Below are positions 9,396 to 47,406 of a stretch of DNA of 64,000 nt, one piece after another. Below the pieces are notes generated by a model. The model made no database searches. It saw only the letters and a list, made by a program, of their open reading frames with translations, and was not told the origin of the DNA. Numbering within the stretch: position 1 is the first letter of the stretch; each line of letters begins with the position of its first letter. This stretch comes from Planctomycetota bacterium (GTDB lineage Bacteria; Planctomycetota; UBA8742; UBA2392). Both the position numbers and the translations under genes were made by a program. The stretch lies in the NCBI GenBank assembly GCA_019636195.1, contig JAHBYA010000002.1, positions 18,311 to 82,310 of the forward strand. Reading direction: 5' to 3'.

Positions 9396-10619
9396 TTACC
9401 GAACCATCTTACGAGTAGAGTCTGGCCGCCTTCTATTACGCACAATCAACCCAAAACAGCCGACCAACACGCAAATTGCCCAGAATCGGCCAGGTGCGCC
9501 AATCGTTGAACAGCCGCCTTCGCCTTGAGCTTCCTTCGATTTCGGTTTTGGCGGCTTCGGTCGCAGGCTGATCACATTACTGCTGACCAGCGGCGGCGTG
9601 GCGATGAAAAAGTCCGCGGCGGCACCCAGCGCGCTGAGCACACCAGTGCGGCTGACCGTAACCTCGCACGATGTCTGCGGCCCGCTGCTGTTGAAATTGA
9701 TGCTGATCCAGAACGCGCGTACCTGCCCGGTGGGGATTGCGGGCACCGTGCCCGCGTCAAACGTAACCGTGATGACGCTGCCCGCCACCGACCACGCCGC
9801 AACATCTGACGGCGTGCGGGCCTGGATCAACACTTCGCCGCTGCCGGGCTCAAAGGCGCTGTCTCCGTCGTCCTGCCACAGCGCAAGCCGCGTCACAGCC
9901 GCCGTGTCCAGCGAGCTTGGCAGCGTCACTGACGCACTGATAGTCGCCAGTTGAATACCCGACAGCTGACCGGGCGGCGTCGGGTTCAGGCTTTCGACAA
10001 TGAAGTGAAGTGCTGCCACGTTGGTCGCGCCGAAGCTGACCGTGCGCGGCGAAGTCGGGTTGCCGGTGCCCGGCTGCAACCGGTTCTCGCTGTGGCGGAT
10101 GGTGACTGTATTGGCCTGCACGGGAAACGTGCCCGTTACGCTGTCCGTCAACGGGTCGTCAAGGTCGATGCTGGCGGCTGCGTCAATGCGAAAGCGAAAG
10201 GCCTCGCCGTACGCGGCCGCGTTGGCAGTAACGGTCACCAGCACCTGGACCTCGTGAAACTGGCCCTGCAACGCGGTGAAGGCCTCGGTGAACGTCAGAA
10301 AGTTGTCCGTGCCGTTGGGCGCCTGCGAAGTTGCCAGCTCTTCGGTGGCGTCAAAGATGCCGTTGTGGTCGGCGTCAAAAAACACACGCACGCCTGAAAA
10401 TACAATCGCGGCATTGGCAGCGTTATCAAAGTGCACGGTCAGCGCATTACAAAGCACGTCTCCGCCGCTGGCTTGCGCGACAAATCGGGCCACCTGCATG
10501 TTGGTACTGCCAAGTTGCGTGGCGTACGAGGGCCCGTTTGTGCCAGAGAGGTTTACAGACAGTGACGCGGCGGCCAGCGGGCAGGAAATCAGAAAGGCCA
10601 GAACAATCAGCAGGCGCAT
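9396..10619 (-). CDS. Secreted protein of unknown function with Cys-containing C-terminal sorting signal
   Basis: Start at MRLLIVLAFLISCPLAAAS (signal peptide). C-terminus is ...KPPKPKSKEAQGEGGCSTIGAPGRFWAICVLVGCFGLIVRNRRRP (Gly/Cys motif, TM helix, Arg cluster). Confidence 0.6.
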   Translation of the reverse strand: MRLLIVLAFLISCPLAAASLSVNLSGTNGPSYATQLGSTNMQVARFVAQASGGDVLCNALTVHFDNAANAAIVFSGVRVFFDADHNGIFDATEELATSQAPNGTDNFLTFTEAFTALQGQFHEVQVLVTVTANAAAYGEAFRFRIDAAASIDLDDPLTDSVTGTFPVQANTVTIRHSENRLQPGTGNPTSPRTVSFGATNVAALHFIVESLNPTPPGQLSGIQLATISASVTLPSSLDTAAVTRLALWQDDGDSAFEPGSGEVLIQARTPSDVAAWSVAGSVITVTFDAGTVPAIPTGQVRAFWISINFNSSGPQTSCEVTVSRTGVLSALGAAADFFIATPPLVSSNVISLRPKPPKPKSKEAQGEGGCSTIGAPGRFWAICVLVGCFGLIVRNRRRPDSTRKMVR

Positions 10620-10917
10620 CAGGACTCCAGCGGGGACAAAAACGGGGCGGTTTGGATTGTAGCGGCAAAGGCGCTGGCTGGAACCGGCGGCGAACGACAC
10701 ACGGCGACACCAGAAGAGCCCTCAGGCGGCCAAGGCTTGAATGAAGGGCTTGCCGGGCTTCTGGCCCCAGCCCGGCCCAACTGGACATAACATCGATTAT
10801 CGGACGTAGGGCATCGGGCCGCCGCGACTTCGGCAAGGTAAGCAACCGGCCACGCCTTTCAGCCAGATGATCTCTGCCGTCAAGGTGCCGCGGGTCGATT
10901 GAGGCCCTGCATCGCGT

Positions 10918-11376
10918 TTATAGGTCAAATCTGGCGATCAGCGGCAACCGGTACTCAACAGACCTGCGCGCCAGGGTTCGCAGGACAGCCAGCCCCGGCA
11001 TTTCCGGCAACCCAGCCAGCGACTTGGCCAGTTCGTTACTGGCGCCCACGCAAACCAGTTCTTCGCGCAGGTCGCGTACCTCAAACAGAAAGTCGTGATC
11101 GCCGGGAAGCCACAGGCTTGGCTTGACCAGTTGCTCGGGCTGTCCTGCCGCCCGGCACAGTGCTTGCCAATCGCTATCCCCTACGGCTGCGTCATCGAAA
11201 GGCGCTGTGGGGGACTCATCCCAGTCCAGTGGATGGGGGAGTTCCTTGTTCAGCCAGTGTCGCCAGGCGCTGACGGCGCCGGAGATAACCTCGGGGTCAG
11301 TCTCGCGCTGCAAGTCCCCCACGCCGCCAATCCGGGCGTAGAAGCGGGCCAAGCTGCCGAGGTAAAAGTGCGGCAT
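10918..11376 (-). CDS. Hypothetical protein (152 aa)
   Basis: ORF only, with no recognisable motif. Lies immediately downstream of the HNH gene on the same strand. Confidence 0.4.
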   Translation of the reverse strand: MPHFYLGSLARFYARIGGVGDLQRETDPEVISGAVSAWRHWLNKELPHPLDWDESPTAPFDDAAVGDSDWQALCRAAGQPEQLVKPSLWLPGDHDFLFEVRDLREELVCVGASNELAKSLAGLPEMPGLAVLRTLARRSVEYRLPLIARFDL

Positions 11377-11385
11377 GAGGGCAGC

Positions 11386-11883
11386 TTACTTCCATAGAAC
11401 CTTTTGTCCGCGCTTGAGGTCAAACGTGATGCCGCCGGACCACAGCCGCTGCTGAACGTCGTACTCGGCATGGCAGAACTGGCACAGTGCCGCCAGGTTC
11501 TCGTCGGCGCAGTTGGCTGGGTCGTGGTCAAGGTGCGCGGTTTGAAGGATCACCACAGCTGGCCGCAACTGCGGAATCTTCCCGCCGTGCCGGATCACGT
11601 ACTTCCACCAGTAGTCGCGGGGCCACGGCAGCGGGCCGGGCAGGCGCTTGCCGTTGCGGTCGCGCCACTGCCCGTCCTCGCCGGCCCAGCAGTTTTCGGC
11701 GCCGACGGTGACCTTTGCGCCGTGCGGCTTGGCGCAGAACTCGCACACGCCGCCCGCACGCATGAAGCGGATACGGTCGCTGATCAATGACCAGTTACCG
11801 GGATACTTGCGCTTTTGCGCCCTGCGGCGACGTTCAACAATGTCCATGAGTCCCCCACGCCAGTTTAGATTCGTGAGCGACAC
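11386..11883 (-). CDS. HNH endonuclease family protein
   Basis: CEFC ... HLDHDPANCADENLAALCQFCH gives the H-N-H/zinc-finger arrangement. The start may be the internal MDIVERRRRAQ. Confidence 0.6.
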   Translation of the reverse strand: MSLTNLNWRGGLMDIVERRRRAQKRKYPGNWSLISDRIRFMRAGGVCEFCAKPHGAKVTVGAENCWAGEDGQWRDRNGKRLPGPLPWPRDYWWKYVIRHGGKIPQLRPAVVILQTAHLDHDPANCADENLAALCQFCHAEYDVQQRLWSGGITFDLKRGQKVLWK

Positions 11884-11924
11884 GCGCGTTTGACTTCACC
11901 CCGCCGGGTGGTACGTTTCTGGGC

Positions 11925-12803
11925 ATGTTCCGTGGCGCGATAACCGCAATCGTTACGCCCTTCAAAGCCGACTACAGCATCGACTTTGATGCGCTGGACC
12001 GCTTGATCGACTTTCAGCTTGAGCAGGGCATCGAAGGCATCATTCCCTGCGGCAGCACCGGCGAAGCCATTACCCAGACCCTGGAAGAACGCTGCGCGGT
12101 CATTGAGCACACGGTCAAGCGCGTCAGTGAGCGCGTGCCGGTGCTCGCAGGCACGGGTGGCTCCAGCACTGCGGAAGTCGTTGAGGCAACCGCGCGCGCC
12201 CGCAAGCTGGGCGCCGATGGCGCGCTGATCAACACGCCGGCGTACAACCGGCCACAGCAGGAGGGCCTGTACCTGCACTACGCAGCCGTTGCAAAGGCAA
12301 CGCCGGGCTTTCCGATCATGTTGTACAACATCCCGGGCCGCACAGCCGTCAACATGAACACTGAGGTCATGGTGCGCCTGTGCAACGACTATCCCCAGAG
12401 CTTTGTGGCCTACAAAGACGCGACCGCCAACCTGAAACAGACCGAAGAAGTGCTGCGCCTGACGCCCTTGGTTGTCCTGTCAGGCGACGACGGCTTGACG
12501 TTGCCGATGATCAGCATGGGCGCGCAAGGGATTGTCAGCGTGGTCGCCAACGTGGCCCCCAAGGCGATCCGGCAGCTCAGCGACCTGTCGCGCGCCGGCA
12601 AGCTGAAGGAAGCAGCAGCGTTGAATCACAAGCTGGCGCCGCTGATTGACGCGTGCTTCGTTGAAAGCAACCCCGTGCCCTCCAAGGCCGCGCTGCACCT
12701 AATGGGCAAGTGCGGGCCGACCGCGCGCCTGCCGCTGGCGCCCATCAGCGAAAAGAGCCTCGCGGTCGTCCGCAAGGCCCTTTCGGATTTCGCCATCCTT
12801 TAA
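11925..12803 (+). CDS. dapA: 4-hydroxy-tetrahydrodipicolinate synthase
   Basis: 292 aa with N-terminal GAITAIVTPF and the conserved DapA fold motifs (GIIPCGSTGE, ...YNIPGRT...). Confidence 0.9.
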   Translation: MFRGAITAIVTPFKADYSIDFDALDRLIDFQLEQGIEGIIPCGSTGEAITQTLEERCAVIEHTVKRVSERVPVLAGTGGSSTAEVVEATARARKLGADGALINTPAYNRPQQEGLYLHYAAVAKATPGFPIMLYNIPGRTAVNMNTEVMVRLCNDYPQSFVAYKDATANLKQTEEVLRLTPLVVLSGDDGLTLPMISMGAQGIVSVVANVAPKAIRQLSDLSRAGKLKEAAALNHKLAPLIDACFVESNPVPSKAALHLMGKCGPTARLPLAPISEKSLAVVRKALSDFAIL

Positions 12804-15800
12804 TCAGTCGCGCCGCTTGCGCAGCCATGCCAGCAGGCCGAGCACCGCCAGGCTCCAGGCTGCGCCGCCGGTCAGCGTGCAACCGCCGCCGCCACCGCTC
12901 TTTTTCTTGCCGCCGCTGGACTTCTTGGGCAACGCGCCGGTCTCATTCACGTGCACGACTACGCGGTCCGTTGCACTGAGGCCGTAGCGGTCAATCACTG
13001 TAAGCTCAAACACTAGCCGGTCGTCCACGGCCGGTGCCGTAAACGTGGGCGTTGCGGTCGTGTCCCCCACCAAGACCACCGGATTTGTACCCCCCACCTG
13101 TGCCCACAGGTAAGTCAGAGCGTCGCCGGTGTTCGGGTCGCTGCTGGCTGTGCCGTCAAGCGTGACCATCGCGCTCCAGACTGCCCCTTGGTCGGGCCCG
13201 GCGTTGGCGACCGGCGGCCGATTGGCCTCAATCGTGACGCGGACAGTATCGGTCGTGAAGTCGCCGCGGTCATCCGTGACGGTAAGCTCGAACTCAAGTT
13301 GCTCGTCCGAAGTGACAGGCAGGGTGCTGAAGCCGGCAAGCATCGTGCCCGCGCCAGCCAGCGTAACCGGCGTGCCTGAGGTTTGCACCCATGAGTAAGT
13401 CAGCGGGTCTGACTCGGCGTCGGTGCTGGCGCTGCCGTCAAGCTGCACCGGGTCGCCGCCCAGCACACCGAAGTCTGCACCCGCGTTGGCGACAGGCGAA
13501 GCATTGTTGCGGACTGTTACCGTAACGCTATCGGTCGTAAACGCGCCTGCGCAATCGCGCACGGTCAGCTGCATGACCACCGGTTCATCCTGGGTGACCC
13601 ACGGCGCCGTGAAGCTGGGGTTGGCAATCGTGGTCGAGTTCAAAGCCAGCGTGACGTTGCCGCTCAGCTGGCTCCACTCGTAGCTGATCGGATCACCATC
13701 GGCATCGCTGCCACTGCCGGAAAGCTGACCGGGAGCGTTTTCGCGAACGTCGAAGTCCGCGCCCGCGTTGCTGCTGGGCGCGTTGTTGGTGCGCACGTCA
13801 AACTCAATTGCCAGGTACTGCAATTCGCCGGTGTTGCTTGCCACGGTGTCCCGGATGCGCACTGTCCATGTCCCGTTCACTGGCAGGCAGTACAGCGCGG
13901 TCATCGGGTCGTCTTCCTGCTTGGTGTCGGGAAACACGGCAATCAGGCTGTACTCGGTATTGAACACGCCATTGTTGGTGGACTTCAATGTTACGGTTGG
14001 TCCCCCACCGGGCGCCTGCAACGTAACAGACAGGTCGCCGCGACGCTGGTGCTTGATGCGGGTGAACACACGCACGCCCGTTATCACGCGCGGGTCGCTG
14101 ACGTTGAAGGTGCGCGTCAAGCCCGCTGTGCTGTTGTCCGGGATCGCCACGGGCGTGCTGCCGTTGACCGCGTCGCCCCGGAAGATCTTTTCCAGGTTGA
14201 CCTGATGGCTGCTGGCGACGACCCAGCCGGTTTCGTCGTTGGGTACGCCGGTTTGCGGGTTGGCCGGCACGCTGGTGCCCTTTACGCGCAAAATCCAGGT
14301 TCCGGTGATCGGATTGTCCACATGCACCAGCTCAAGGTTGTCGCGCTGGTTGGGGCCGTTGTTCGTGAACGCGTAGGTATGGTCGTTGGTGCTCGCGGTG
14401 TTCACGCCGCGCCACGGGTAGTGGATGCCGCCGTTCGGGTCTTCAAGTTCAATGTCGAGGTCATTGACCATGGACACCGCCGCCCCGCTGGTGGCATGCA
14501 CGTCAAGCCACGAGAGCACGATGTGAATCGGGTCAGCGCTTGAGACCGTGAATGTGTACTCCTGCACTTTCCCCGAGCGTGTGGTGCCCCGGAAAATGCG
14601 GCGCCCGCCGGAAGCCTTGTCTGCCAGGATCAGGTCAGAGGCCGCCTGCACGTCCACAATACCGAAGCCGTAGCGATAGTCCGGGCCGGGGTGGTACTTG
14701 TCGCGACAGGTCTGGGCCAGCACCGCGCGCGCGACATCCGGCGAAAACACCTGATCGCTGTGTTCGCGCCGCCACAGTTGCGCCAGCAGCACCACGCTGC
14801 CGCACACCGAAGGCCCGCTCATGCTCGTGCCGCTGGCGGAGTAGTAATTTGTGTTCGAACTGCTGCCGGTGCTGTCCAATGAAACTCCGTTGGCACAAAA
14901 CTGCGGGATCAGCCTGCCGTCCAGTCCCGGGCCGCGGCTGGAAAAGTCGGCGATGTCTTCGTTGTCCTCCGCGGCCGCGATGATGAAACCGTTGCGGTGT
15001 GCATTGGCCGACGGGATCGAGCAGGTGGGGTTGCTGTCGCCAAACGGCTTGGTGCCGGACGGCGAGTAATTCGCATAGTTGCCAGCCGACTGCACCATGC
15101 AACCAAGGATGTCGCGGTTTGTGCGGTCCTTGGTGCGCGTGTCACCGTTGTACGCAGCCCAGGTGGGACTGCTGAAGCTGGCATAGCTGTGATTGTCGGC
15201 AACGTGGTTGAAGTTGTGCTTGGCATCGCGCCGGCGAGCATCAACGCCATTCCACTCATGTACAAGGCAAAGCGCGCGGTACGCATAGCCGCGGGCTGAG
15301 GCGTTGTTGGTGCCGTCGCCGACAATCGTGCCGGTCACGTGGGCGGCATGGCTGTGCAGTGTGCTGTCCATGTTGTGCACGCGGCCGCTGCCCGGCCAGT
15401 TGCTTGGCACGCTTACGCCGGACAGCCCTTGGTACTGCTCATGGGTGCTGCGTGCGACACCGGCGTCAAAGACCGCAGCAACCTGGCCGTTGCCGTCAAG
15501 GTTGTACGGGTTTACGCCGATGATCGCGGGCGTGGCGTTGGCCATGGCCGCGCTGACCTGGTTTGTGGTCTCGGTGTGGCTGCGCGGCGATACGTACTCA
15601 ACCAGCGGACTGGCCAGCAGGCGCTTGAGGCCTTGACCCGTCAAGGAAAGGGTCACGGTCGCGTCGGTGCCGCCCAACTTGCCGTCAACCACAATGGCGC
15701 CCACGTCGTCCAGCAGCACTGCGGCTTGTTCAATGCTCACGTCCGCCCAGAACTCAACGGCATACTCACCGGCCTGATCCTGTTTGGCATAGACGTCCGG

Positions 15801-16259
15801 CGCCATCCGGTCCATCGGCTCAATTGCAAGCGTGCCTTCGACCAGCGTGTCTTTCAGGACTTCCGCGATGCTGTGGTCGCCGACACGAAGAAAGTGAGTG
15901 TGGGGCCACGCGTAGCCGATGAACGACACGCCGCGTGCATCAAGGCGCCGCGCCAGCGCCCGCGTCATGTCACCGCGAAGCTTCAGGGCAAACACTTCCC
16001 CAGTCGGCGGCACGGGGCACTTGCGGTCAGCAAGCACATAGCGCGAGCGCAACATCACGAGCCCGCGAACTTCAACTTCGTTCAGGCCGGCCTCAAAGCG
16101 CGCCTGGGCCTCCAGGTCGTAGGGCTGACCCAGTTCAAGGCTTGATGTCGGTCGCGGGGGCGCCGCCTGCTGGCCGGCGGCCTGATCCACCCGCAAAAGC
16201 GAAAGCACTGCCGCGAACAGCGGCAGCGCACACAACAACATCGCGTTGCGATAACGCAT
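12804..16259 (-). CDS. Secreted subtilisin-like serine protease (S8) with proprotein-convertase P-domain, 4 PKD-like repeats and Gly-rich Cys-containing C-terminal sorting signal
   Basis: Signal peptide MRYRNAMLLCALPLFAAVLS. Catalytic D (AVFDAGV), H (HAAHVTGT) and S (GTSMSGP), plus the P-domain hallmark RRGDLSVTL. Repeats have the form PVANAGADF/DQ...LDGSAS.D.DGD.L.Y.W, ending ...GGGGGCTLTGGAAWSLAVLGLLAWLRKRRD. Confidence 0.85.
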   Translation of the reverse strand: MRYRNAMLLCALPLFAAVLSLLRVDQAAGQQAAPPRPTSSLELGQPYDLEAQARFEAGLNEVEVRGLVMLRSRYVLADRKCPVPPTGEVFALKLRGDMTRALARRLDARGVSFIGYAWPHTHFLRVGDHSIAEVLKDTLVEGTLAIEPMDRMAPDVYAKQDQAGEYAVEFWADVSIEQAAVLLDDVGAIVVDGKLGGTDATVTLSLTGQGLKRLLASPLVEYVSPRSHTETTNQVSAAMANATPAIIGVNPYNLDGNGQVAAVFDAGVARSTHEQYQGLSGVSVPSNWPGSGRVHNMDSTLHSHAAHVTGTIVGDGTNNASARGYAYRALCLVHEWNGVDARRRDAKHNFNHVADNHSYASFSSPTWAAYNGDTRTKDRTNRDILGCMVQSAGNYANYSPSGTKPFGDSNPTCSIPSANAHRNGFIIAAAEDNEDIADFSSRGPGLDGRLIPQFCANGVSLDSTGSSSNTNYYSASGTSMSGPSVCGSVVLLAQLWRREHSDQVFSPDVARAVLAQTCRDKYHPGPDYRYGFGIVDVQAASDLILADKASGGRRIFRGTTRSGKVQEYTFTVSSADPIHIVLSWLDVHATSGAAVSMVNDLDIELEDPNGGIHYPWRGVNTASTNDHTYAFTNNGPNQRDNLELVHVDNPITGTWILRVKGTSVPANPQTGVPNDETGWVVASSHQVNLEKIFRGDAVNGSTPVAIPDNSTAGLTRTFNVSDPRVITGVRVFTRIKHQRRGDLSVTLQAPGGGPTVTLKSTNNGVFNTEYSLIAVFPDTKQEDDPMTALYCLPVNGTWTVRIRDTVASNTGELQYLAIEFDVRTNNAPSSNAGADFDVRENAPGQLSGSGSDADGDPISYEWSQLSGNVTLALNSTTIANPSFTAPWVTQDEPVVMQLTVRDCAGAFTTDSVTVTVRNNASPVANAGADFGVLGGDPVQLDGSASTDAESDPLTYSWVQTSGTPVTLAGAGTMLAGFSTLPVTSDEQLEFELTVTDDRGDFTTDTVRVTIEANRPPVANAGPDQGAVWSAMVTLDGTASSDPNTGDALTYLWAQVGGTNPVVLVGDTTATPTFTAPAVDDRLVFELTVIDRYGLSATDRVVVHVNETGALPKKSSGGKKKSGGGGGCTLTGGAAWSLAVLGLLAWLRKRRD

Positions 16260-16323
16260 GCGTTCCCCAGTTTGCAATTCAAAAGCTACCCGACGGGGCG
16301 CCGCTTGCGCAGCGCCCCGGAAT

Positions 16324-19300
16324 TCATGCCTGACCCCGGCGAGCTACCGCCCGGCTGCAAACCCACGCGCCTGCGGCAAGCGCGATCAGCAACCACAGCA
16401 GGCCCTTGCCGCCATCGGTGCTGCAACCGCCGCCCCCGCCGCCACCCTTGCTGCCGCCGCCGCCTCCCCCACCACCTCCGCCGCCACTGCCGACGAAGAT
16501 TGTGACGGTATCGAAGCTGATGTCATCGCCGTCATCCAGCATCAGCTGGAACACAAGCACATCGTTGACCGACGGGGCCGTGAAGCTCGGGAACTGGGAT
16601 GCTTCGTTTTGGAGCGTAACGACGTTCGCGCCGCCGATCTGCGACCACTGGTAGGTCAACGGGTCGCCATCCGGGTCGCTGCTGGCGCTGCCATCCAACG
16701 TAACCACCGCGCCGGTAGTTACTGTCTGGTCGGGCCCGGCATTGGCCACCGGGGGCGTGTTGGTCGAAACCGGGTTGACCGTGACCACCACGTCGTCCGT
16801 ATCCGATGCGCTGAACGGGTCCGTCACTGTCAGGCGCATCGTGATCAGCGTGGTTGAAAACACCGTCGGCGCCGTGAACGATGGCGTAGCCGTGTTGGCG
16901 CCGCTCAGGAACATGAACGATGACCCGATTTCTGCCCACGAGTATGTCAGCGGATCGCCATTGGGATCAGAACTGCCGGTGCCATTGAGGTTCCCCGGCT
17001 GGCCGGACGTGATCGAAAAGTTTGCCCCGGCGTTGGCTACAGGCGGCTGGTTTGGCGCCGGCACGTCATTGACGGTGATGTTGACGGTGTCAGACGAAAT
17101 GCCGCCGCGCCCGTCGTTGACCACCAGCTGAAACACGCAGATTTGCGTGCTGCCCACGCCCGGCGCCGTGAAGCTCGGCGTCGCGGTCGTCGGGTTGTTG
17201 AGTGTCGCGCTCGGGCCGGAGGTCTGGCTCCATGAGTACGTCAGCGGGTCGCCATCCGGGTCAAAGCTGCCGGTGCCATTGAGGTTCACGAGCGTGCCCT
17301 CATTGACCGACTGGTTCGGGCCAGCCTCGGCGACCGGCGGGTTGTTTGCGCCGCCGGTAACCGTCAGGTCAATCTCGAGCCCCAGCCACTGCAGCGTGCC
17401 CGAGTTGCTGCCGGTCTGGTTGTCGGTGATGATCACTTGCCACGCGCCGCCGGCGGGCTTGCCGATGAAGGCCGTGACGTCGCTGGCGTACTGGCGCGTG
17501 TCGGGATACACCGCCAGCAGGTCGCGGCGGGTGCTGGTACCAAAGTCGTTCAGTGTGACCGTGGTGTTGTCCGGGTGGCGCAGCTGCACTTGCAGGTCCC
17601 CGCGGCGGGTGTGTTTGATGTCCGTGATCAGGCGCACCTGCGCGACGTTGCCGCTGGCAGACACGTTCAGTGTCCGAGTCAAGTTGCCGCTGCCGTTGGG
17701 TATCGCCGCCGGGCTGCCCGTGTTCACGGCGTCTTCTGCCGACACCTTGCTGTGGATGATCTGGTGGTTCAGGCTCGTGACAACAAAACCCGCAACATTG
17801 TTCGGGTTGCCGTTGACATTCGGCGGCAGCAGGGACCCATGCACCTGCACCGTCCAGGTACCGACCGCGGGGCTGCTGATATCTACCAGCTCAAGGTTAT
17901 CGCGCTGGTTGCAGTGCGAGCGACTGAACGCGCTTGTGTTGACGACTCGTGTCCACTGGTGAGTCTGGTTGCCGGTTGCAGTCAGCCCCACCCACGCGTA
18001 GTGGCGCGTGCCTGTGGGCGAGATCAGGACCAGGTCAAGGTCATTGATCAACTTGGTACCTGAGCCGGTGCTGGCGTAAATGTCCAGCCATGACAGCGCA
18101 ACCTTGATCGGGTTGGTGCTGCTGGTAACCGACATCTGCCACTGCACAATGTTGCCTTGGCGCACCTGGCCGCGCACGATGTGACGGCCGCCGCTGCTCT
18201 TGTTCGCCAGCATCAGGTCCGCGGCGTTGCGCACGCGGATACGCCCGAAGCCGTACTGGTAGTCAGGCCCCTGGTTGCCGCTGTCCAGCGCGGTTGCGGC
18301 AAGCACGCCACGCAGCACATCGGGTGACAGGCGCTGCTTGCTGTACTCGCGCTGCCACAACTGGGCCAGCAGCGTGATACCGCCGCAGGCGCTGGGGCTG
18401 GACATGCTGGTGCCGCTGCTGCTGGCGTAGGCGCTGTTGCTGCCGGTGTAAGTGCTGGTAAGGCCCGAGCCATTGGCCTGAAAGTGCGGAATGATGCGCC
18501 CGTCGTTGGTCGGACCGCGCGAACTGAAACTTGAAATGCTGCCGTTGTCGTTCAAAGACCCGATCACGAATGCATTTTTCATGCACGTGTCGTTCGTACA
18601 GGTGTTGCTGCCGCTGCCGCTGTTGCCCGCCGACTTGCACATGTTCACCAGCACGTCGCGAATGTCGATGTCGCTGGACTGCGCGCTGCTGTTGTAGCCG
18701 CCGTTGCTGGTGCTTTCGCCATAGCTGTGGTTGTCTGCCACAATGCGATAGTTATGCACAGCCGTCAGGCGCTGGCTGTTCATGTTGTTCCAGTCGTGGC
18801 TGACGACATAGGCCCGGGGCGCGTAGCCGCGGCCGTTGGCGTTGGCGGTGCCGTCGCCGATGATGGTGCCGGTTACGTGCGTCGGGTGGCTGGACATGCT
18901 GCTGGTGTCCACGCGCAGCACACGCTTTGTGCCGTTGTTGATGGGGCTGGGTGAACTGGCGGCCTGCAATGCAACGTGCGTGTCCAGCGCCGTGCCGCCG
19001 TCCCATACACCCACCACCAACCCGTCGCCTGTCAGGTTGTAGCTGGTGGACGGGCCAACGTCGGAGGCGCCGGCAATGCTGAGCGATGCGCTGACAACAT
19101 TATGGATCACCTTGTGCGGCACCGGCTCAATCCACTCGATGCGCGGGTCGCGGCTTGCAGCCTTCAACTGCGAGGTGGTGAAGCGCACGCCGAAGAAGCG
19201 CACTTCTTCGGGATCGGGCGTGCCGTCGTTCAGCGTTGAACCGAACAGCAGGGGCACTTCACGCTCGTGCAACCAGGCCAGGATTTCCTCGCCGGTAACG

Positions 19301-19866
19301 TTGCGCCAGAACGTGATGCGCAGGTCGTGCGTCGCATCGGTAGGGGCAGACATCAACTCCCATGCTTCCTTGCTGCACACGTCCATCGCATGGCTGAGCA
19401 ATGTGCCCGCCACGTTGGGATGACCCTTCAGCATTTGGCCTGCGGTGTTGAGGCTTTGCCCGTCGTGGGCGCGGAAAAAGTAGGCATTGGGCCCGGCATA
19501 GCCGACAAATGCGATACCTGCGGCCTCAAGTTGCGCCGCAAACTCTGCGTCAAGAACCTCACGGAACTTGACGTAGAACATGGATGTCGGTTCGGACGTC
19601 GGCAGCGGGCAGTCGGGGTCTGCTAGCGCGAATCGGGATTCAAGCTCAATCAATCTCGCCCGCTCGTCGAAGGTAAGCTGCTGTTCAAATCGTTGGTGGG
19701 CCTCGCGGTCAAACGCTTGACCAAGGTCCAGGCTGGTGGCCGGTCGTGTCCCCACGACATTGCCGGCCTCTGGTGCGGCCTTGCCGTTGCCGGGAGTCAC
19801 CGCAAGTACCGCTGCGGCAACGACCAATGCAATTGCAAGACACGCCCATGCGGATGGGAACCGCAT
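16324..19866 (-). CDS. Secreted subtilisin-like serine protease (S8) + P-domain + PKD-like repeats + poly-Gly + C-terminal sorting signal (paralog of the 12804..16259 gene)
   Basis: Same architecture as its neighbour, with a homologous ~250-aa N-terminal region, catalytic triad motifs and RRGDLQVQL. The tail is poly-Gly (GGGGGGGGGGGGSKGGGGGGGCSTDGG) then LLWLLIALAAGAWVCSRAVARRGQA. Confidence 0.85.
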   Translation of the reverse strand: MRFPSAWACLAIALVVAAAVLAVTPGNGKAAPEAGNVVGTRPATSLDLGQAFDREAHQRFEQQLTFDERARLIELESRFALADPDCPLPTSEPTSMFYVKFREVLDAEFAAQLEAAGIAFVGYAGPNAYFFRAHDGQSLNTAGQMLKGHPNVAGTLLSHAMDVCSKEAWELMSAPTDATHDLRITFWRNVTGEEILAWLHEREVPLLFGSTLNDGTPDPEEVRFFGVRFTTSQLKAASRDPRIEWIEPVPHKVIHNVVSASLSIAGASDVGPSTSYNLTGDGLVVGVWDGGTALDTHVALQAASSPSPINNGTKRVLRVDTSSMSSHPTHVTGTIIGDGTANANGRGYAPRAYVVSHDWNNMNSQRLTAVHNYRIVADNHSYGESTSNGGYNSSAQSSDIDIRDVLVNMCKSAGNSGSGSNTCTNDTCMKNAFVIGSLNDNGSISSFSSRGPTNDGRIIPHFQANGSGLTSTYTGSNSAYASSSGTSMSSPSACGGITLLAQLWQREYSKQRLSPDVLRGVLAATALDSGNQGPDYQYGFGRIRVRNAADLMLANKSSGGRHIVRGQVRQGNIVQWQMSVTSSTNPIKVALSWLDIYASTGSGTKLINDLDLVLISPTGTRHYAWVGLTATGNQTHQWTRVVNTSAFSRSHCNQRDNLELVDISSPAVGTWTVQVHGSLLPPNVNGNPNNVAGFVVTSLNHQIIHSKVSAEDAVNTGSPAAIPNGSGNLTRTLNVSASGNVAQVRLITDIKHTRRGDLQVQLRHPDNTTVTLNDFGTSTRRDLLAVYPDTRQYASDVTAFIGKPAGGAWQVIITDNQTGSNSGTLQWLGLEIDLTVTGGANNPPVAEAGPNQSVNEGTLVNLNGTGSFDPDGDPLTYSWSQTSGPSATLNNPTTATPSFTAPGVGSTQICVFQLVVNDGRGGISSDTVNITVNDVPAPNQPPVANAGANFSITSGQPGNLNGTGSSDPNGDPLTYSWAEIGSSFMFLSGANTATPSFTAPTVFSTTLITMRLTVTDPFSASDTDDVVVTVNPVSTNTPPVANAGPDQTVTTGAVVTLDGSASSDPDGDPLTYQWSQIGGANVVTLQNEASQFPSFTAPSVNDVLVFQLMLDDGDDISFDTVTIFVGSGGGGGGGGGGGSKGGGGGGGCSTDGGKGLLWLLIALAAGAWVCSRAVARRGQA

Positions 19867-20154
19867 CGGTGCCTCCTTCTGCGTCCGAAATGCCAAAGAA
19901 CAAAGTTGTTTGCTTACAGGAGAGTTGCCCAGACCCCACCTGACTTACGCTAACGAACAGACAATTAAAAAGTTCACTTCGAATCTTCGAATCTTATCAC
20001 ATTGTAACCACCTTCGTGCACCCGGTTTGCGACACCAGACACACGCACTCGACGGCTTGGCGTGTTCGCGCTACCTTGCAACTGGACCTGTTTTGCATGG
20101 GTGGCCACAACCACCCAGCCGTGTTATGCAGTGAAGCAACGACAAGGACGCCCA

Positions 20155-21636
20155 GTGCTGTTGAACTCTGAACTGTTTACCGCCCAGCAGGAGATCCTGA
20201 AGCATGCCAGGGAATTCGGGCTGGACTTCTTTGATGTTCACTTCGAGATGCTGGATTACGAAAGCCTGAACGAAGTGGCCGCCTACGGGGGCTTTCCCAC
20301 CCGCTACCCCCACTGGCGCTTCGGCATGCATTACGAGGAACTGCTCAAGGGCTACACGTACGGCATCAGCAAGATCTATGAGCTGGTGATCAACAATGAC
20401 CCGGTTATTGCTTACTTGATGGACAGCAATGACTTCGTGTCCCAGAAGCTGGTGATGGCGCACGTTTACGGCCACGCCGACTTCTTCAAGAACAACCTGT
20501 GGTTCAGCAAGACCAACCGCAAAATGGTTGACCAGATGGCCAACCACGCGGCGCGCATCCGCCGCTACATGGACCATTACGGCCGCGACAAGGTTGAGCG
20601 TTTCATTGACGCGTGCCTGAGCCTCGAAAACCTGATTGACCCGCTGCTGCCCTTTTCAAGGCCGCCGCAACGCCAGCAGACCGTTGACCTGGACGATGAG
20701 ACCGTGCGCATTGAGGTGACCAAGCTGCAGTCCAAGGATTACATGGACCGCTACATCAATCCGCCCGAGATACTGGCCCGCAAGCGCACCGAGCTTGAGC
20801 GCAAGGCCCAGGAGCCGCCGAAGTTCCCCGCCGAGCCGATCAAGGACGTGCTTTGGTTTCTCATGACCTACGCGCCGCTGCGCAACTGGCAGCGTGACGT
20901 GGTCAACATCGTGCGCGAAGAGGCCTACTACTTCGCACCGCAACGCTCGACCAAGATCATGAACGAGGGCTGGGCCAGCTATTGGCACAGCACGATCATG
21001 ACGCAGAAGGCAGCCACAGCCGCCGAGATCGTGGATTTTGCCGACCACCACAGCATGACGATGGGCATGAATCCCGGCGTGATCAACCCCTACAAGCTCG
21101 GGATTGAGCTGTTCCGGGACATCGAGTATCGCTGGGACCACGGCATGCACGGCCTTGAGTGGGAACGCTGCGAAGACCTGAGCGAGAAGGAAAACTGGGA
21201 CAGGCCCGCCCCCGGAGAAGGCCGCAAGAAGATCTTTGAAGTGCGCAAGATCCACAATGACCTGACGTTCATTGACGAATTCCTGACCGAAGACTTCTGC
21301 ATCCGCGCCAAGCTGTTCACGTATGACTTCAACCCCACCACCGGCCGCTACGAAATCAGCAGCCGCGACTTTGAGGGCATCAAGAACAAGCTGCGGACCC
21401 AGTTGACTAACATGGGCGAGCCGTACATCTACGTGGAAGACGGCAACTACGCCAACCGCGGCGAGCTTCTGCTGGTGCACCGCCACGAGGGCTTTGACTT
21501 GGACGAGGGCTACACCCGCGAGACGCTGCGCAACGTCCACCGTATCTGGAACCGCCCGGTGTACCTGAGCTCAAAGGAAGAGAACAAGTCGGTCCTGCAC
21601 CGCTATGACGGCAAGGACTACAAGCGCGAGTCTTGA
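20155..21636 (+). CDS. spoVR: SpoVR family protein (YcgB-like)
   Basis: ORF 20062..21636. Homology begins near GTG 20155 (ELFTAQQEILKHAREFGLDFFDVHFEM...FPTRYPHWRFG), typical of the SpoVR N-terminus. The start codon is uncertain. Confidence 0.8.
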   Translation: MLLNSELFTAQQEILKHAREFGLDFFDVHFEMLDYESLNEVAAYGGFPTRYPHWRFGMHYEELLKGYTYGISKIYELVINNDPVIAYLMDSNDFVSQKLVMAHVYGHADFFKNNLWFSKTNRKMVDQMANHAARIRRYMDHYGRDKVERFIDACLSLENLIDPLLPFSRPPQRQQTVDLDDETVRIEVTKLQSKDYMDRYINPPEILARKRTELERKAQEPPKFPAEPIKDVLWFLMTYAPLRNWQRDVVNIVREEAYYFAPQRSTKIMNEGWASYWHSTIMTQKAATAAEIVDFADHHSMTMGMNPGVINPYKLGIELFRDIEYRWDHGMHGLEWERCEDLSEKENWDRPAPGEGRKKIFEVRKIHNDLTFIDEFLTEDFCIRAKLFTYDFNPTTGRYEISSRDFEGIKNKLRTQLTNMGEPYIYVEDGNYANRGELLLVHRHEGFDLDEGYTRETLRNVHRIWNRPVYLSSKEENKSVLHRYDGKDYKRES

Positions 21637-35323: not shown

Positions 35324-36091
35324 CTAGTCGCCGCCCAGTTTCCAGCCCTTGGGAATCTTGACCTTCACGTCAAAGTGCCGCTTCAGGACCGCTACGGCCG
35401 TCTCAAGCACTGTGACGCGCGCGTGCCACTTGTGCTGGCTTGAGACCGCGTGCCAAGGCGCGTAGTCGGTAGATGTGCGCTTGAACATTTCGTCCACGGC
35501 GGCTTCGTACATGTCCCATTTCTCGCGGTTGCGCCAGTCTTCGGGGCCGATCTTCCATGCCTTGAAAGGGTCCTGCTCGCGGGCCTTGAAACGCTTGAGC
35601 TGCTCGTCCTTGGAAATGTGCAGGTAGTACTTGATCACCGGCACGCCGTCATCGTGCAGCATGCGCTCAAAGGCATTGATCTCGTCGTAGGCACGCTTCC
35701 AGGCTTCCTTGGCAGCGAACTTCTCCACGCGCTCGACCAGCACGCGCCCGTACCAGCTTCGGTCAAAAATGCCCATGCAGCCGGGCTCGGGGATGCGGTC
35801 CCAGAAGCGTTGCAGGTAGTGCCGCCCCTTTTCGCGGGCGCCGGGCGCGCCAATCGGGTGCACCACGTAGCCTCGTGGGTCAAGCCGCTCAATCAGCCGC
35901 CGAATGGACCCGCCCTTGCCTGCCGCATCGCAGCCCTCGAACACGAAAATGGCTTCGCGGTTGTTCTCGTGCATCCAGCGCTGGATGAACAGCATCTGCA
36001 TCTGCGCCAGTTCCTGGCGGCTGTGGTATTCATCCTTGTCCTTGATGCGCGCGGACAGGTCTATCGACTCAACGGTCAAGGCCATGTTCAC
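35324..36091 (-). CDS. ppk2: Polyphosphate kinase 2 family (polyphosphate:nucleotide phosphotransferase)
   Basis: FEGCDAAGKGGSIRRL (Walker A) and FDRSWYGRVLVERVE (PPK2 lid motif). Confidence 0.85.
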   Translation of the reverse strand: MNMALTVESIDLSARIKDKDEYHSRQELAQMQMLFIQRWMHENNREAIFVFEGCDAAGKGGSIRRLIERLDPRGYVVHPIGAPGAREKGRHYLQRFWDRIPEPGCMGIFDRSWYGRVLVERVEKFAAKEAWKRAYDEINAFERMLHDDGVPVIKYYLHISKDEQLKRFKAREQDPFKAWKIGPEDWRNREKWDMYEAAVDEMFKRTSTDYAPWHAVSSQHKWHARVTVLETAVAVLKRHFDVKVKIPKGWKLGGD

Positions 36092-45702: not shown

Positions 45703-46881
45703 ATGCGCCTTCTGTCCGTGGCTGCCGCCTGTGTTGTGGCAGCATCTCTTTCCGCTCAAGCCAACCAACCGACCTCACCTACTGCCGCTGAGCAGTTGTT
45801 CATGTACGAGGTCAACCGCGCCCGCGCCAACCCGCAAGGCTACGACACCGAAAAGGGCCTTGGCGGGGTGTGCAACGGCATAACACCTGCGCATCCGCTG
45901 GCGTTGAATGAACGACTGGTGACGTCATCGCGCTTTCACAGCGCTGAGATGGCCCAGCACGGCTATTTCGCGCATACCAGCCCGATCACCGGCCATCAGC
46001 CCAACAAGATGGCGCGCAATGCCGGCTATCCGTTGAAGTCGAGCTACCCCGATGCGGCCAACTACATCGAGTCGCTGGCGGGCATCTTCGGCAGCAGCAG
46101 CAGCATCAGCTATGAGGCCACGGCGGCTGTGCGCGCGCTGATCCTGGACGCTGGCGTCAACCCGCCCGGCCACCGCTATCACCTGCTGTCATGGGGCGGG
46201 TCGCAGGCGCAGATCGACACCGCGCGCCTGAACCGCGAGTGCGGCGCGGGCTACGCCACCGGCATTGGCGCCAACGGCTATGCTGCCGGCGCGTACTGGG
46301 CGTTTCACACCGGCGTGCGCGACACCAGCGTCACGTTCATTGCAGGCGTTGTGTACAATGACGCCAACGACAACGGCCGCTTTGACAACGGCGAAGCGCT
46401 GCCCGGGGTAACCGTCAAGCTGATCAACTGGAACACGCAGCAGCAGGTCGGCACCTTCACCACCGGCGCGGGCGGCGCCTACACGCACCAGGCCGGCAAC
46501 GGCACCTGGGTGCTGGAGGTCAGCGGCGGCAGCTTCAGCGGCACGCGCTGGGCCAAGATCACCGTAAGCGGCCAGAACGTGCAGGTTGATTTCCGCAGCA
46601 ACAGCAACAACGCCGACATCAACTTTGGCTCATGGGGTCAGCTCCCGGGCAGCGCCTCGGTCGATGGTTCAACCATGCCCGCCCCCCCGCCCACAAGCGG
46701 CGGTGGCGGTGGTGGCACGGGCGGCGGAGGCAGCGGCGGCACCGGCGGCGGTGGCGGCTCCGGCCCCGTTGAATACGGCGGCAGCAACAGCTGTGTAGCC
46801 GGCCACGGGACGCACTGGGCCCTGCTGGCGATGGCCCTGCTGGCCATGGCCGCGGTCAGCCTGCGTCGCACCCGCGCGTAA
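45703..46881 (+). CDS. Secreted CAP/SCP (PR-1-like) domain protein with beta-sandwich domain, poly-Gly linker and Cys-containing C-terminal sorting signal
   Basis: Signal peptide MRLLSVAAACVVAASLSAQA. CAP motifs YEVNRARAN...HSAEMAQHGYFAHTSP. C-terminus ...GGGGSGPVEYGGSNSCVAGHGTHWALLAMALLAMAAVSLRRTRA. Confidence 0.6.
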   Translation: MRLLSVAAACVVAASLSAQANQPTSPTAAEQLFMYEVNRARANPQGYDTEKGLGGVCNGITPAHPLALNERLVTSSRFHSAEMAQHGYFAHTSPITGHQPNKMARNAGYPLKSSYPDAANYIESLAGIFGSSSSISYEATAAVRALILDAGVNPPGHRYHLLSWGGSQAQIDTARLNRECGAGYATGIGANGYAAGAYWAFHTGVRDTSVTFIAGVVYNDANDNGRFDNGEALPGVTVKLINWNTQQQVGTFTTGAGGAYTHQAGNGTWVLEVSGGSFSGTRWAKITVSGQNVQVDFRSNSNNADINFGSWGQLPGSASVDGSTMPAPPPTSGGGGGGTGGGGSGGTGGGGGSGPVEYGGSNSCVAGHGTHWALLAMALLAMAAVSLRRTRA

Positions 46882-46965: not shown

Positions 46966-47406
46966 ATGAAATCCACCTTCGCTACCGAGATGTTTGTCAA
47001 GCTGTTTGGCGCCATGCCAAGACCGCGTGAGCCACAACACAGGCCGGAGCCGCCAACCTCGGCCATCATGGTGCCGGACCGACCGGCGCCCAGCGGCGGC
47101 AAAGTCATTTACCACGTCGTCCCGCGCCGCAAGGACGACGGCTGGAACGTGAAGAAAGAGGGCGCCAGCAAGCCCTCAAGCGTCTGCGACACCAAAGATC
47201 AGGCAATTGAGGCCGCGCGCGGGTTTGCACAGAACCTTCCGTGGTCCCAAGTTGTCATTCACAACAAGGACGGCAAAATCGCCCAGGAGTTCAGCTACGG
47301 CACGCCGCCGGAAGGCCACACCGACAAGCCCGCCAAGCCGGTCGGGGACTGGTCCCGCGACCCCGAAGACGAAACCGAGGCCGATCCCGGCATCCAGGAC
47401 TCATGA
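46966..47406 (+). CDS. DUF2188 family protein
   Basis: Start at MKSTF, with WNVKKEGASKPSSVCDTKDQAIEAARGFAQN...VIHNKDGKIAQEFSYG typical of DUF2188. A TACAAT box lies 6 nt upstream of the ATG. Confidence 0.55.
   Translation: MKSTFATEMFVKLFGAMPRPREPQHRPEPPTSAIMVPDRPAPSGGKVIYHVVPRRKDDGWNVKKEGASKPSSVCDTKDQAIEAARGFAQNLPWSQVVIHNKDGKIAQEFSYGTPPEGHTDKPAKPVGDWSRDPEDETEADPGIQDS

What the first reader, a model, noticed from the sequence alone, without database searches (positions are those of the whole stretch)
9396..19866. Four secreted proteins share a Gly-rich/Cys - hydrophobic helix - Arg-rich C-terminal sorting signal (MYXO-CTERM / GlyGly-CTERM-like); processing enzyme not in window
The C-termini are ...EGGCSTIGAPGRFWAICVLVGCFGLIVRNRRRP (9396..10619), ...GGGGGCTLTGGAAWSLAVLGLLAWLRKRRD (subtilase 1), ...GGGGGGGCSTDGGKGLLWLLIALAAGAWVCSRAVARRGQA (subtilase 2) and ...GGSNSCVAGHGTHWALLAMALLAMAAVSLRRTRA (CAP-domain protein 45703..46881). 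All four have a tripartite layout with an invariant Cys 3-8 residues before a Trp-containing TM helix and a basic tail. This is the logic of exosortase, rhombosortase, archaeosortase and myxosortase substrates, where the Cys is presumed to be lipidated. There is no PEP or LPXTG motif. The four substrates (two proteases, a CAP protein and an unknown) are functionally diverse, which argues for a general surface-anchoring pathway.
Basis: partly seen in the sequence, partly recalled or inferred. Interest (0 to 1): 0.6.

Follow-up and report, generated by a model that had tools for sequence, protein, structure and literature searches.

The report
Myxobacterial-type sorting tails in a planctomycete
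Four exported proteins in this planctomycete genome fragment end in the short cysteine-containing membrane tail that myxobacteria use to send proteins to the cell surface; the signal is a known kind, but its wide use in planctomycetes has not been described and the enzyme that would cut it was not found.

Summary
Four ORFs, and only these four in the window, have an N-terminal signal peptide and a C-terminal tail made of a Gly run, one Cys, 5-8 polar residues, a Trp-containing TM helix and a basic cluster. The window comes from a Planctomycetota MAG (GCA_026184255.1). All 44 full-length subtilase orthologues (41-67% identity) and three protein-1 orthologues keep the tail, and the Cys is the only invariant column. 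A tail profile finds 317 protein clusters, with at least 34 Pfam cargo families; eight of nine named members are planctomycete. The tails belong to the MYXO-CTERM kind: 31 of 63 reach about the TIGR03901 cutoff, profile-profile probability against genuine myxobacterial tails is 94.7%, and a planctomycete-derived HMM scores genuine myxobacterial tails as well as the window's own. They differ in having a single Cys (GGC-S/T-T, not GCGC) and a longer, often acidic spacer. The four window tails themselves fall below curated cutoffs. GlyGly-CTERM, PEP-CTERM and LPXTG do not fit. The window holds no sorting enzyme. Myxosortase-family enzymes were recovered from metagenomes, but none could be tied to this lineage. 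Verdict: a lineage extension, with a minor motif variant, of a known sorting system. The processing steps are inferred by analogy.

The parts
9396..10619 (-). Protein 1 (407 aa), an exported protein of unknown function (only a weak GEVED-domain hit). It has a signal peptide and the Cys tail.
   Evidence: ORF and translation. Exact product on record in GCA_026184255.1. Pfam GEVED 17.8 bits, below cutoff. Orthologues in L004, L005 and L007 keep a GEGGCS...TM...basic tail.
9396..9524 (-). Tail of protein 1: GEGGCSTIGAPGR-FWAICVLVGCFGLIV-RNRRRPDSTRKMVR*
   Evidence: Translation. Independent tail HMM 20.8 bits, E 1.3e-4. No NCBIfam CTERM model hit.
12804..16259 (-). Subtilase 1 (1151 aa): signal peptide, N-terminal pro-region, S8 catalytic domain (D/H/S present), PPC domain, P-domain, three K319L-like PKD domains, Gly-rich linker, Cys tail.
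   Evidence: Pfam. Called gene in the public record. Catalytic motifs VFDAG, HVTGTI and GTSMS.
12804..12896 (-). Tail of subtilase 1: GGGGGCTLTGG-AAWSLAVLGLLAWL-RKRRD*
   Evidence: Translation. TIGR03901 15.8 bits vs cutoff 20; TIGR03501 13.4 vs 15.5. Independent tail HMM 21.5 bits. The full protein aligns to the end of the myxosortase-dependent M36 model.
16324..19866 (-). Subtilase 2 (1180 aa), a paralogue of subtilase 1 (43% identity) with the same architecture.
   Evidence: Pfam, alignment, called gene in the public record.
16324..16446 (-). Tail of subtilase 2: GGGGGGGCSTDGGKG-LLWLLIALAAGAWVC-SRAVARRGQA*
   Evidence: Translation. Independent tail HMM 24.0 bits, E 1.3e-5. No NCBIfam CTERM hit above noise.
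45703..46881 (+). Weakly CAP/YkwD-like exported protein (392 aa) with a CarboxypepD_reg/SdrD_B-like beta-sandwich, a long Gly-rich linker and the Cys tail.
   Evidence: The start codon is uncertain because an exact-product lookup failed.
46777..46881 (+). Tail of the CAP-like protein: GGSNSCVAGHGTH-WALLAMALLAMAAVSL-RRTRA*
   Evidence: Translation. TIGR03901 17.3 bits vs cutoff 20; JDVT-CTERM 17.6 vs 27. Independent tail HMM 18.8-21.3 bits when tested alone.
10539..10619 (-). Signal peptide region of protein 1 (MRLLIVLAFLISCPLAAASLSV...)
   Evidence: Read directly from the sequence; the cleavage site was not predicted with a tool.
16167..16259 (-). Signal peptide region of subtilase 1 (MRYRNAMLLCALPLFAAVLSLLRVDQAAG...)
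   Evidence: Read directly from the sequence.
19765..19866 (-). Signal peptide region of subtilase 2 (MRFPSAWACLAIALVVAAAVLAVTPGNG...)
   Evidence: Read directly from the sequence.
45703..45780 (+). Signal peptide region of the CAP-like protein (MRLLSVAAACVVAASLSAQA...)
   Evidence: Read directly from the sequence.

Best explanation
The four tails are members of a planctomycete version of the MYXO-CTERM class of C-terminal protein-sorting signals. The proposed pathway has five steps.
(1) The N-terminal signal peptide sends the protein through Sec. The signal peptides are shown in the sequence.
(2) The C-terminal helix holds the protein in the cytoplasmic membrane, with the Arg/Lys cluster on the cytoplasmic side. 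This topology is inferred from the positive-inside rule.
(3) The invariant Cys just outside the membrane is modified, probably lipidated. This is inferred by analogy with the MYXO-CTERM model of Guo, Haft and Wall 2025 and has not been shown in any system.
(4) An intramembrane protease removes the helix and basic tail distal to the Cys. The enzyme is most likely a CPBP/Rce1-type glutamic endopeptidase of the myxosortase (Mrt) clade, encoded elsewhere in the genome. This is inferred; the enzyme was not found.
(5) The mature protein is moved to the cell surface, probably through a type II secretion secretin. This is also inferred.
The cargo consists of degradative enzymes and adhesin-like Ig/PKD proteins, so the pathway would be a general housekeeping route for surface display in this lineage.
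For: - Conservation: all 44 full-length orthologues of the subtilases (41-67% identity) keep the tail. The Cys is the only invariant column and the preceding Gly is at least 90% conserved, while the flanks vary. Protein-1 orthologues keep GEGGCS plus TM plus basic residues.
- Generality: the tail profile finds 317 clusters (50% identity) at E<=1e-3 among 1.84 billion proteins. 143 of 146 new representatives carry it at the extreme C-terminus. 73 sampled proteins span 34 Pfam families, a list like the M. xanthus MYXO-CTERM cargo list. Eight of nine named members are Planctomycetota.
- Specificity: an HMM built without the window tails hits only planctomycete DNA, with 0 hits in 1.26 Mb of other phyla.
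- Family identity: TIGR03901 matches 31 of 63 tails at about its cutoff, JDVT-CTERM 14 of 63 and GlyGly-CTERM 0 of 63. hhalign against 8 genuine myxobacterial tails gives 94.7% probability, E 5.6e-8, in register. The planctomycete HMM scores genuine tails lying next to MrtX-type genes at 21.7-21.9 bits, equal to the window tails. Myxococcota homologues of the subtilase PKD region carry GCGC MYXO-CTERM tails, and Bacteroidota homologues carry T9SS C-terminal domains at the same position.
- Enzyme logic: every Cys-containing tripartite signal studied so far pairs with an Mrt-clade CPBP (Haft preprint). MrtX cleavage needs the Cys (mBio 2025). A housekeeping enzyme is not expected next to its clients. 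In a metagenome contig (L133) a single-Cys GGCS-tailed protein sits in tandem with an Mrt-like gene. A secretin gene lies 6-9 kb beyond the window.
Against: - The four window tails score below every curated cutoff, or not at all.
- No CPBP, rhomboid or exosortase gene was found in the window or in about 190 kb of related planctomycete DNA.
- Of 120 myxosortase-like loci recovered from metagenomes, none carried a planctomycete-type tail or resembled this genome.
- A profile search with Mrt enzymes listed no Planctomycetota name and no contig of this lineage among the best 120 hits. This is a low-power negative.
- Haft found the myxosortase core model only in Myxococcota and Bradymonadales among about 14,000 representative proteomes.
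- The GCGC double Cys typical of myxobacteria is nearly absent here.
- Lipidation of the Cys has not been shown biochemically in any system.
Confidence: 0.65

Rival explanations
1. The tails are a Cys-bearing variant of GlyGly-CTERM. They would be cut by a rhombosortase (a rhomboid-family serine protease) after the Gly run, and the new C-terminus would be attached to a glycerophosphoethanolamine-type anchor before type II secretion.
For: The tails are preceded by a Gly run. TIGR03501 scores 13.4 bits (cutoff 15.5) on subtilase 1. The subtilase PKD region also matches the rhombosortase-dependent M36 model. GlyGly-CTERM proteins were reported in the planctomycete Rhodopirellula baltica (PMC3237569).
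Against: TIGR03501 matched 0 of 63 lineage tails at E<=7e-4, against 31 for MYXO-CTERM. GlyGly-CTERM has no Cys and its GG abuts the helix, whereas here an invariant Cys and a 5-10 residue polar spacer intervene. No rhomboid gene was found in the window.
Confidence: 0.1
2. The tails are ordinary C-terminal membrane anchors of type I membrane proteins. Nothing is cleaved or lipidated, and the proteins stay tethered to the cytoplasmic membrane facing the periplasm.
For: A signal peptide, one C-terminal helix and basic residues are all that a bitopic protein needs. No processing enzyme was found. The window tails are below curated cutoffs.
Against: A plain anchor does not explain an invariant Cys with a conserved GG before it, at a fixed distance from the helix, across hundreds of unrelated families while all neighbouring positions vary. 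It also does not explain profile homology to a signal shown experimentally to be cleaved. Large secreted-type proteases and adhesin-like cargo are expected on the surface.
Confidence: 0.1
3. The signal is recognised by a sorting enzyme outside the myxosortase clade. This could be another CPBP subfamily or an unrelated intramembrane protease or transpeptidase, so the planctomycete system would be a convergent or strongly diverged pathway.
For: No Mrt-type enzyme could be linked to the lineage. Haft found no NF040914 hits outside Myxococcota and Bradymonadales in representative proteomes. The motif differs: single Cys, an S/T-T after it, and an acidic spacer.
Against: The searches had little power, since only about 190 kb of lineage DNA and 120 listed hits were seen. 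All four Cys-type signals studied pair with the Mrt clade. The tails are reciprocally recognised with genuine MYXO-CTERM.
Confidence: 0.13
4. The tails are PEP-CTERM/exosortase or LPXTG/sortase signals.
For: The tripartite layout is shared by all these systems. Three of 63 tails weakly matched the LPXTG anchor model.
Against: No PEP, LPXTG or related motif is present in any of the four tails. No PEP-CTERM model hit appeared at E<=10.
Confidence: 0.02

Closest known systems
MYXO-CTERM sorting signal (TIGR03901) with myxosortase MrtX/MrtC/MrtP (Myxococcota, Bradymonadales)
   Same: Extreme C-terminal position, about 35-40 residues, Gly-Cys signature, TM helix, Arg cluster, and signal peptide on the cargo. 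There are many clients that are not linked to the enzyme gene. The cargo classes are the same (PKD, He_PIG, LamG, GSDH, trypsin, peptidases). Recognition by HMM is reciprocal, and hhalign gives 94.7%.
   Different: The host phylum is Planctomycetota. There is almost always a single Cys (GGC-S/T-T) instead of the frequent GCGC. The spacer is longer and often acidic, and there is a Trp at the start of the helix. The four window tails are below the curated cutoff. The cognate myxosortase was not found.
JDVT-CTERM with MrtJ (Pseudomonadota)
   Same: Single invariant Cys and a Leu-rich helix. 14 of 63 lineage tails reach E<=7e-4 on NF033191, and the CAP-like tail scores 17.6 bits.
   Different: There is no Asp-Pro motif nine residues after the Cys. 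JDVT-CTERM has typically one client per genome, adjacent to MrtJ, whereas here there are four clients in 64 kb and none next to a protease.
GlyGly-CTERM with rhombosortase (Vibrio, Shewanella; reported in Rhodopirellula)
   Same: Gly-rich signature, helix, Arg cluster, S8 and other protease cargo, and dependence on type II secretion in the model organism.
   Different: GlyGly-CTERM has no Cys and is shorter (22 residues), with the GG directly before the helix. TIGR03501 matched 0 of 63 lineage tails.
Bacterial N-terminal lipoprotein pathway (Lgt, LspA)
   Same: An invariant Cys next to a membrane helix that is removed after lipidation of the Cys. This is the mechanistic analogy drawn by Guo et al..
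   Different: The topology is opposite (C-terminal), there is no lipobox, and a different protease class is expected.

Membership tests
MYXO-CTERM (TIGR03901) | Domain lies at or very near the C-terminus of a protein with an N-terminal signal peptide | tested here: met
   All four tails end the ORF and all four proteins start with a signal peptide. 143 of 146 representative hits are at the extreme C-terminus.
MYXO-CTERM (TIGR03901) | [quoted passage not shown] | tested here: met
   The Cys is the only invariant column in 37-, 38-, 63- and 73-sequence alignments. Helix and basic cluster are present in all four.
MYXO-CTERM (TIGR03901) | Score at or above the curated HMM cutoff (20 bits) | tested here: not met
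   Window tails score 15.8 and 17.3 bits, and two give no hit. In the wider lineage 31 of 63 tails reach about the cutoff, best E 3.1e-7. Haft notes that a single model performs unevenly between lineages.
MYXO-CTERM (TIGR03901) | Sequence homology to genuine myxobacterial tails | tested here: met
   hhalign gives 94.7% probability, E 5.6e-8, in register. The planctomycete-derived HMM scores L159 and L164 tails, which lie next to MrtX-type genes, at 21.7 and 21.9 bits.
MYXO-CTERM (TIGR03901) | Frequent second Cys (GCGC motif) | tested here: not met
   A CxC motif occurs in 1 of 143 anchored representative tails, and none of the four window signature motifs has it. The feature is frequent, not obligatory, in myxobacteria.
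MYXO-CTERM (TIGR03901) | Many client proteins per genome, of unrelated families | tested here: inconclusive
   Four clients in 64 kb here and four in 23 kb of L004, and 34 Pfam families across the lineage. The whole genome could not be counted.
MYXO-CTERM (TIGR03901) | Taxonomic range: Myxococcota and Bradymonadales | tested here: not met
   The source and relatives are annotated as Planctomycetota MAGs. The curated range is given.
MYXO-CTERM (TIGR03901) | A myxosortase (NF040914 core) encoded in the same genome | not testable with these tools
   Only about 85 kb of the genome was reachable, and none was found there. The indirect searches were negative but low-powered.
JDVT-CTERM (NF033191) | Nearly invariant Asp-Pro nine residues after the single Cys | tested here: not met
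   No DP at that position in any window tail or in the lineage consensus.
JDVT-CTERM (NF033191) | About one client per genome, adjacent to MrtJ; HMM cutoff 27 bits | tested here: not met
   Four clients in the window with no adjacent protease. The best window score is 17.6 bits.
GlyGly-CTERM (TIGR03501) | GG motif directly before the helix, about 22 residues, HMM cutoff 15.5 bits | tested here: not met
   One window tail scores 13.4 bits and the others give no hit. 0 of 63 lineage tails match at E<=7e-4. A Cys and a spacer separate the Gly run from the helix.
PEP-CTERM / LPXTG | PEP or LPXTG signature before the helix | tested here: not met
   The motifs are absent from all four tails, and no model hit appeared.

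The most novel reading that the evidence does not exclude
An uncultured planctomycete lineage runs a high-capacity Cys-tail surface-sorting pathway with hundreds of client families. Its processing enzyme, or the chemistry on the Cys, lies outside the known myxosortase clade. That would be an independent branch of C-terminal lipid anchoring in a phylum whose cell envelope is still debated.
Probability: 0.15. Interest if true: 0.65.

Novelty: new member of a known kind. Interest (0 to 1): 0.38.

Why it matters
MYXO-CTERM is described in the literature held here as specific to myxobacteria, with Bradymonadales as the only other lineage reported. These results show the same kind of signal on hundreds of exported protein families in Planctomycetota MAGs. 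This has three consequences:
- The range of Cys-based C-terminal sorting becomes wider.
- A lineage-specific seed alignment is now available for better annotation, because half of these tails are missed by the curated model.
- It gives a concrete route by which planctomycetes may attach proteases and adhesin-like proteins to their surface.
It is not a new principle. The value is in annotation and comparison unless the enzyme turns out to be different.

Tried and rejected
- Tail profile against the word-indexed 5.8-billion protein set: it returned only 11 short fragments and was useless as a census. The exhaustive representative search worked instead.
- Tail alignment as a query for reference genomes: the first alignment was too diverse. 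The second was reduced to a Gly/Asp-run pattern with 600 unconfirmed matches.
- Subtilase alignment against reference genomes: it gave only 5 true orthologous loci, and this genome is not a species representative. The other roughly 70 loci served as negative controls.
- Exact-product lookups with wrong start codons failed.
- Generic CPBP consensus against plasmids: it found real CPBP genes but none of Mrt type or from planctomycetes. Two Vibrio loci had no Cys-tail neighbour.
- Metagenome scan with a DNA pattern back-translated from the two MrtX peptides quoted by Haft: it gave 120 genuine myxosortase-like genes, none attributable to this lineage by flank homology, tail content or tetranucleotide signature. 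Tetranucleotide signature could not separate planctomycete from acidobacterial origin.
- A DUF1559 pseudopilin marker was uninformative.
- L152, the contig leaning most towards the planctomycete signature, has a myxobacteria-style Cys-rich repeat neighbour.
- The last profile search with unassigned Mrt enzymes gave no planctomycete names, and the two long contigs I fetched from its hits (P0429, P0337) were myxobacterial in composition.
- Considered and rejected: PEP-CTERM, LPXTG, GlyGly-CTERM and JDVT-CTERM membership (see the membership table).
Full report
**What is there**

The flagged span holds three ORFs on the minus strand: protein 1 (9396-10619, 407 aa), subtilase 1 (12804-16259, 1151 aa) and subtilase 2 (16324-19866, 1180 aa). 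A fourth ORF lies at 45703-46881 on the plus strand. A structural scan of every six-frame ORF for a C-terminal hydrophobic run followed by basic residues returns these four and no other real gene. Each protein begins with a Sec-type signal peptide. Each ends with a Gly run, one Cys, 5-8 polar residues, a Trp-containing helix of about 14-16 residues and a basic cluster.

Protein 1 continues for eight residues (DSTRKMVR) after RRRP. The fourth protein lies outside the stated coordinates. Its CAP label is weak: PF00188 scores 14.5 bits against a cutoff of 21.1, and YkwD scores 27.3 bits against 171.

The subtilases have an S8 domain with the catalytic Asp, His and Ser motifs. They also carry a PPC domain, a proprotein-convertase P-domain and three K319L-like PKD domains. 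Protein 1 has no confident domain.

**Source**

Exact-product lookups place the window on contig JAHCJM010000001.1 (1.27 Mb) of GCA_026184255.1. NCBI labels this assembly a Planctomycetes MAG. The rest of the window is housekeeping: dapA, cysS, ppk1, ppx, ppk2, dus, mlaE, exbBD, oxoprolinase and others.

**Is it more than chance?**

- All 44 full-length planctomycete orthologues of the subtilases (41-67% identity) keep the tail.
- In alignments of 37, 38 and 63 tails, the Cys is the only invariant column and the Gly before it is at least 90% conserved. The spacer, helix and linker vary freely.
- Orthologues of protein 1 in three other MAGs keep GEGGCS, a helix and basic residues.
- An HMM built from 59 tails of other proteins, excluding the window's own, scored three window tails at 20.8-24.0 bits (E<=1.3e-4 among 7,931 ORFs). 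It scored the CAP-like tail at 18.8-21.3 bits when tested alone.
- Every hit of that HMM was in planctomycete DNA. There was none in 1.26 Mb of control loci from Bacteroidota, Acidobacteriota and other phyla.

**How general is it?**

The tail profile was searched against 1.84 billion representative proteins and found 317 clusters at E<=1e-3. Of 146 new representatives among the best 150, 143 carry GG-C-[S/T/A]-x, a polar spacer, a helix and RRR at the extreme C-terminus, in proteins of 50 to 2,643 aa. Eight of nine named cluster members are Planctomycetota.

Seventy-three sampled cargo proteins span 34 Pfam families. These include He_PIG, VesB-like Ig, DUF1573, PKD, TIG, LamG, S8, trypsin, GSDH, polysaccharide lyase, FG-GAP and MAM. 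This list closely resembles the domain list published for M. xanthus MYXO-CTERM proteins.

Homologues of the subtilase or its PKD region in other phyla carry other sorting tails at the same position: GCGC MYXO-CTERM in Myxococcota and T9SS C-terminal domains in Bacteroidota.

**Which known signal is it?**

NCBIfam on the four tails alone gave MYXO-CTERM at 15.8 and 17.3 bits (cutoff 20), JDVT-CTERM at 17.6 (cutoff 27) and GlyGly-CTERM at 13.4 (cutoff 15.5). Protein 1 and subtilase 2 gave nothing.

Across 63 lineage tails at E<=7e-4, which is roughly the TIGR03901 cutoff, the counts were:

| Model | Tails matched (of 63) |
|---|---|
| MYXO-CTERM (TIGR03901) | 31 |
| JDVT-CTERM | 14 |
| Older GC_trans_RRR model | 7 |
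| GlyGly-CTERM | 0 |

A profile-profile comparison with eight genuine myxobacterial tails gave 94.7% probability (E 5.6e-8), with Cys, helix and Arg cluster in register. In the other direction, the planctomycete HMM scored two genuine tails lying beside MrtX-type genes at 21.7 and 21.9 bits, the same as the window's own tails.

The signal therefore belongs with MYXO-CTERM. The differences are a single Cys (a CxC motif in 1 of 143), a preferred S/T-T after the Cys, a longer and often acidic spacer, and a Trp at the start of the helix. The DP motif that defines JDVT-CTERM is absent, and PEP and LPXTG motifs are absent.

**What is known**

Haft's preprint restricts curated MYXO-CTERM to Myxococcota and Bradymonadales and treats hits elsewhere as singleton false positives. 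It assigns all four Cys-type signals to CPBP/Rce1-type proteases of one clade: MrtX, MrtC, MrtP, MrtJ, MrtS and MrtA.

Guo, Haft and Wall (mBio 2025) showed three things: MrtX is needed for cleavage and surface display of TraA, cleavage needs the Cys, and it works in E. coli. Lipidation of the Cys and handover to the type II secretion system remain a working model.

No paper in the searchable library links this signal to Planctomycetes. The only co-mention is the 2011 report of GlyGly-CTERM in Rhodopirellula. JGI's automatic annotation already labels at least two such proteins as MYXO-CTERM.

**The enzyme**

The window has no CPBP, rhomboid or exosortase gene. Its only multi-pass membrane proteins are ABC permeases, MlaE, a cytochrome-c-assembly protein and ExbB. 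None is present in five orthologous loci or in 10 kb beyond the window's right end. This is what Haft predicts for a housekeeping enzyme with many clients.

To look further, I back-translated the two MrtX peptides that Haft reports as diagnostic and scanned the metagenome contigs.

- All 120 stored hits were in-frame CPBP genes with all three catalytic motifs.
- Nine of ten sampled passed the curated myxosortase-core model. Two classified as MrtX, one as MrtC and six fitted no named subtype.
- None of the 120 contigs (593 kb) carried a planctomycete-type tail or genes resembling this genome.
- Compositional signatures were not decisive.
- A final profile search with the unassigned enzymes listed no planctomycete name and no contig length of the lineage among its best 120. 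Two of its three long-contig hits were fetched, and both were myxobacterial in composition.

The enzyme for this lineage therefore remains unidentified. The negative result has little power, because only about 190 kb of lineage DNA and a small slice of a large family were seen.

**Mechanism, and what is shown versus inferred**

- Shown: signal peptides, tail architecture, invariance of the Cys, spread across unrelated cargo, homology to MYXO-CTERM, and absence of the enzyme from the window.
- Inferred: membrane topology, modification of the Cys, cleavage by an Mrt-like CPBP, and secretin-dependent surface display.

I put the signal identity at about 0.85 and the full pathway, including an Mrt-clade enzyme, at about 0.65. 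The rivals and their rough weights are a rhombosortase-processed variant (0.10), plain uncleaved anchors (0.10), an enzyme outside the Mrt clade (0.13), and PEP-CTERM or LPXTG (0.02).

**Verdict**

This is a new lineage, with a modest motif variant, of a known sorting system rather than a new kind of system. Its interest is moderate. It widens the range of a signal thought to be myxobacterial and gives planctomycete surface-protein biology a testable pathway. A full-genome scan for the protease would settle the open part quickly.

Noticed in passing
window 10790-10807; public record JAHCJM010000001.1 (L001 1-9812, L002 1-8865): The window is identical to the public contig except that the record has an extra 16,531 bp at this point. 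The extra segment is bounded by an 18-bp direct repeat (ACATCGATTATCGGACGT) and carries Rep_1, HTH_31, AAA_25/DnaB_C-like and He_PIG genes. It looks like an integrated mobile element that is absent from the window. No tRNA is at the site.
   Followed up: partly
window 9396-19866; L004 2723-16861, L005 5334-17355, L007 3-10684: The gene order of two or three tail-bearing subtilase paralogues, followed within a few kb by a protein-1 orthologue, is conserved in other planctomycete MAGs. This suggests a functional link between protein 1 and the proteases.
   Followed up: partly
L083 1535-4216, about 6-9 kb beyond the window's right end, upstream of exbB (window 62874-63614): A secretin gene (STN plus Secretin domains) whose product has a lipoprotein-type signal peptide (…LVACSS…). 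It sits beside two large unannotated exported proteins (1339 and 439 aa) and exbB/exbD. It could be the outer-membrane gate for tail-bearing cargo. The same ExbB product occurs on 23 or more contigs in public assemblies.
   Followed up: partly
L087-L206 (metagenome contigs): Myxosortase-family (NF040914-positive) proteases are abundant in metagenomes on contigs with GC from 0.40 to 0.75, and six of ten sampled fit none of the named subtypes MrtX/C/P/Z/J/S. The family is probably wider than the lineages described so far.
   Followed up: partly
L133 436-1179(-) and 1233-3503(-): On a GC 0.53 contig of unknown origin there is a tandem pair on the same strand, 54 bp apart: a cargo protein ending in a single-Cys GGCS tail, followed by an Mrt-like CPBP gene. 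This is the dedicated client-enzyme layout known for JDVT-CTERM/MrtJ.
   Followed up: partly
window 35324-36091, 47401-48939, 48936-51284: Three polyphosphate genes lie in one window: ppk2, ppx/gppA and ppk1, with ppx and ppk1 overlapping by 4 bases.
   Followed up: no
window 1868-3928 and 20062-21636: prkA and spoVR, which from my own knowledge often sit together in one operon in other bacteria, lie about 16 kb apart here, with the subtilase cluster between them.
   Followed up: no
P0058 (homologue): A PKD-domain homologue ends in ...GGGGCTLGQPGAPDPTLPAIAIVALLWILRRKG, with Asp-Pro nine to ten residues after the Cys. That is a JDVT-CTERM-type tail, showing tail swapping within this protein family.
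   Followed up: no
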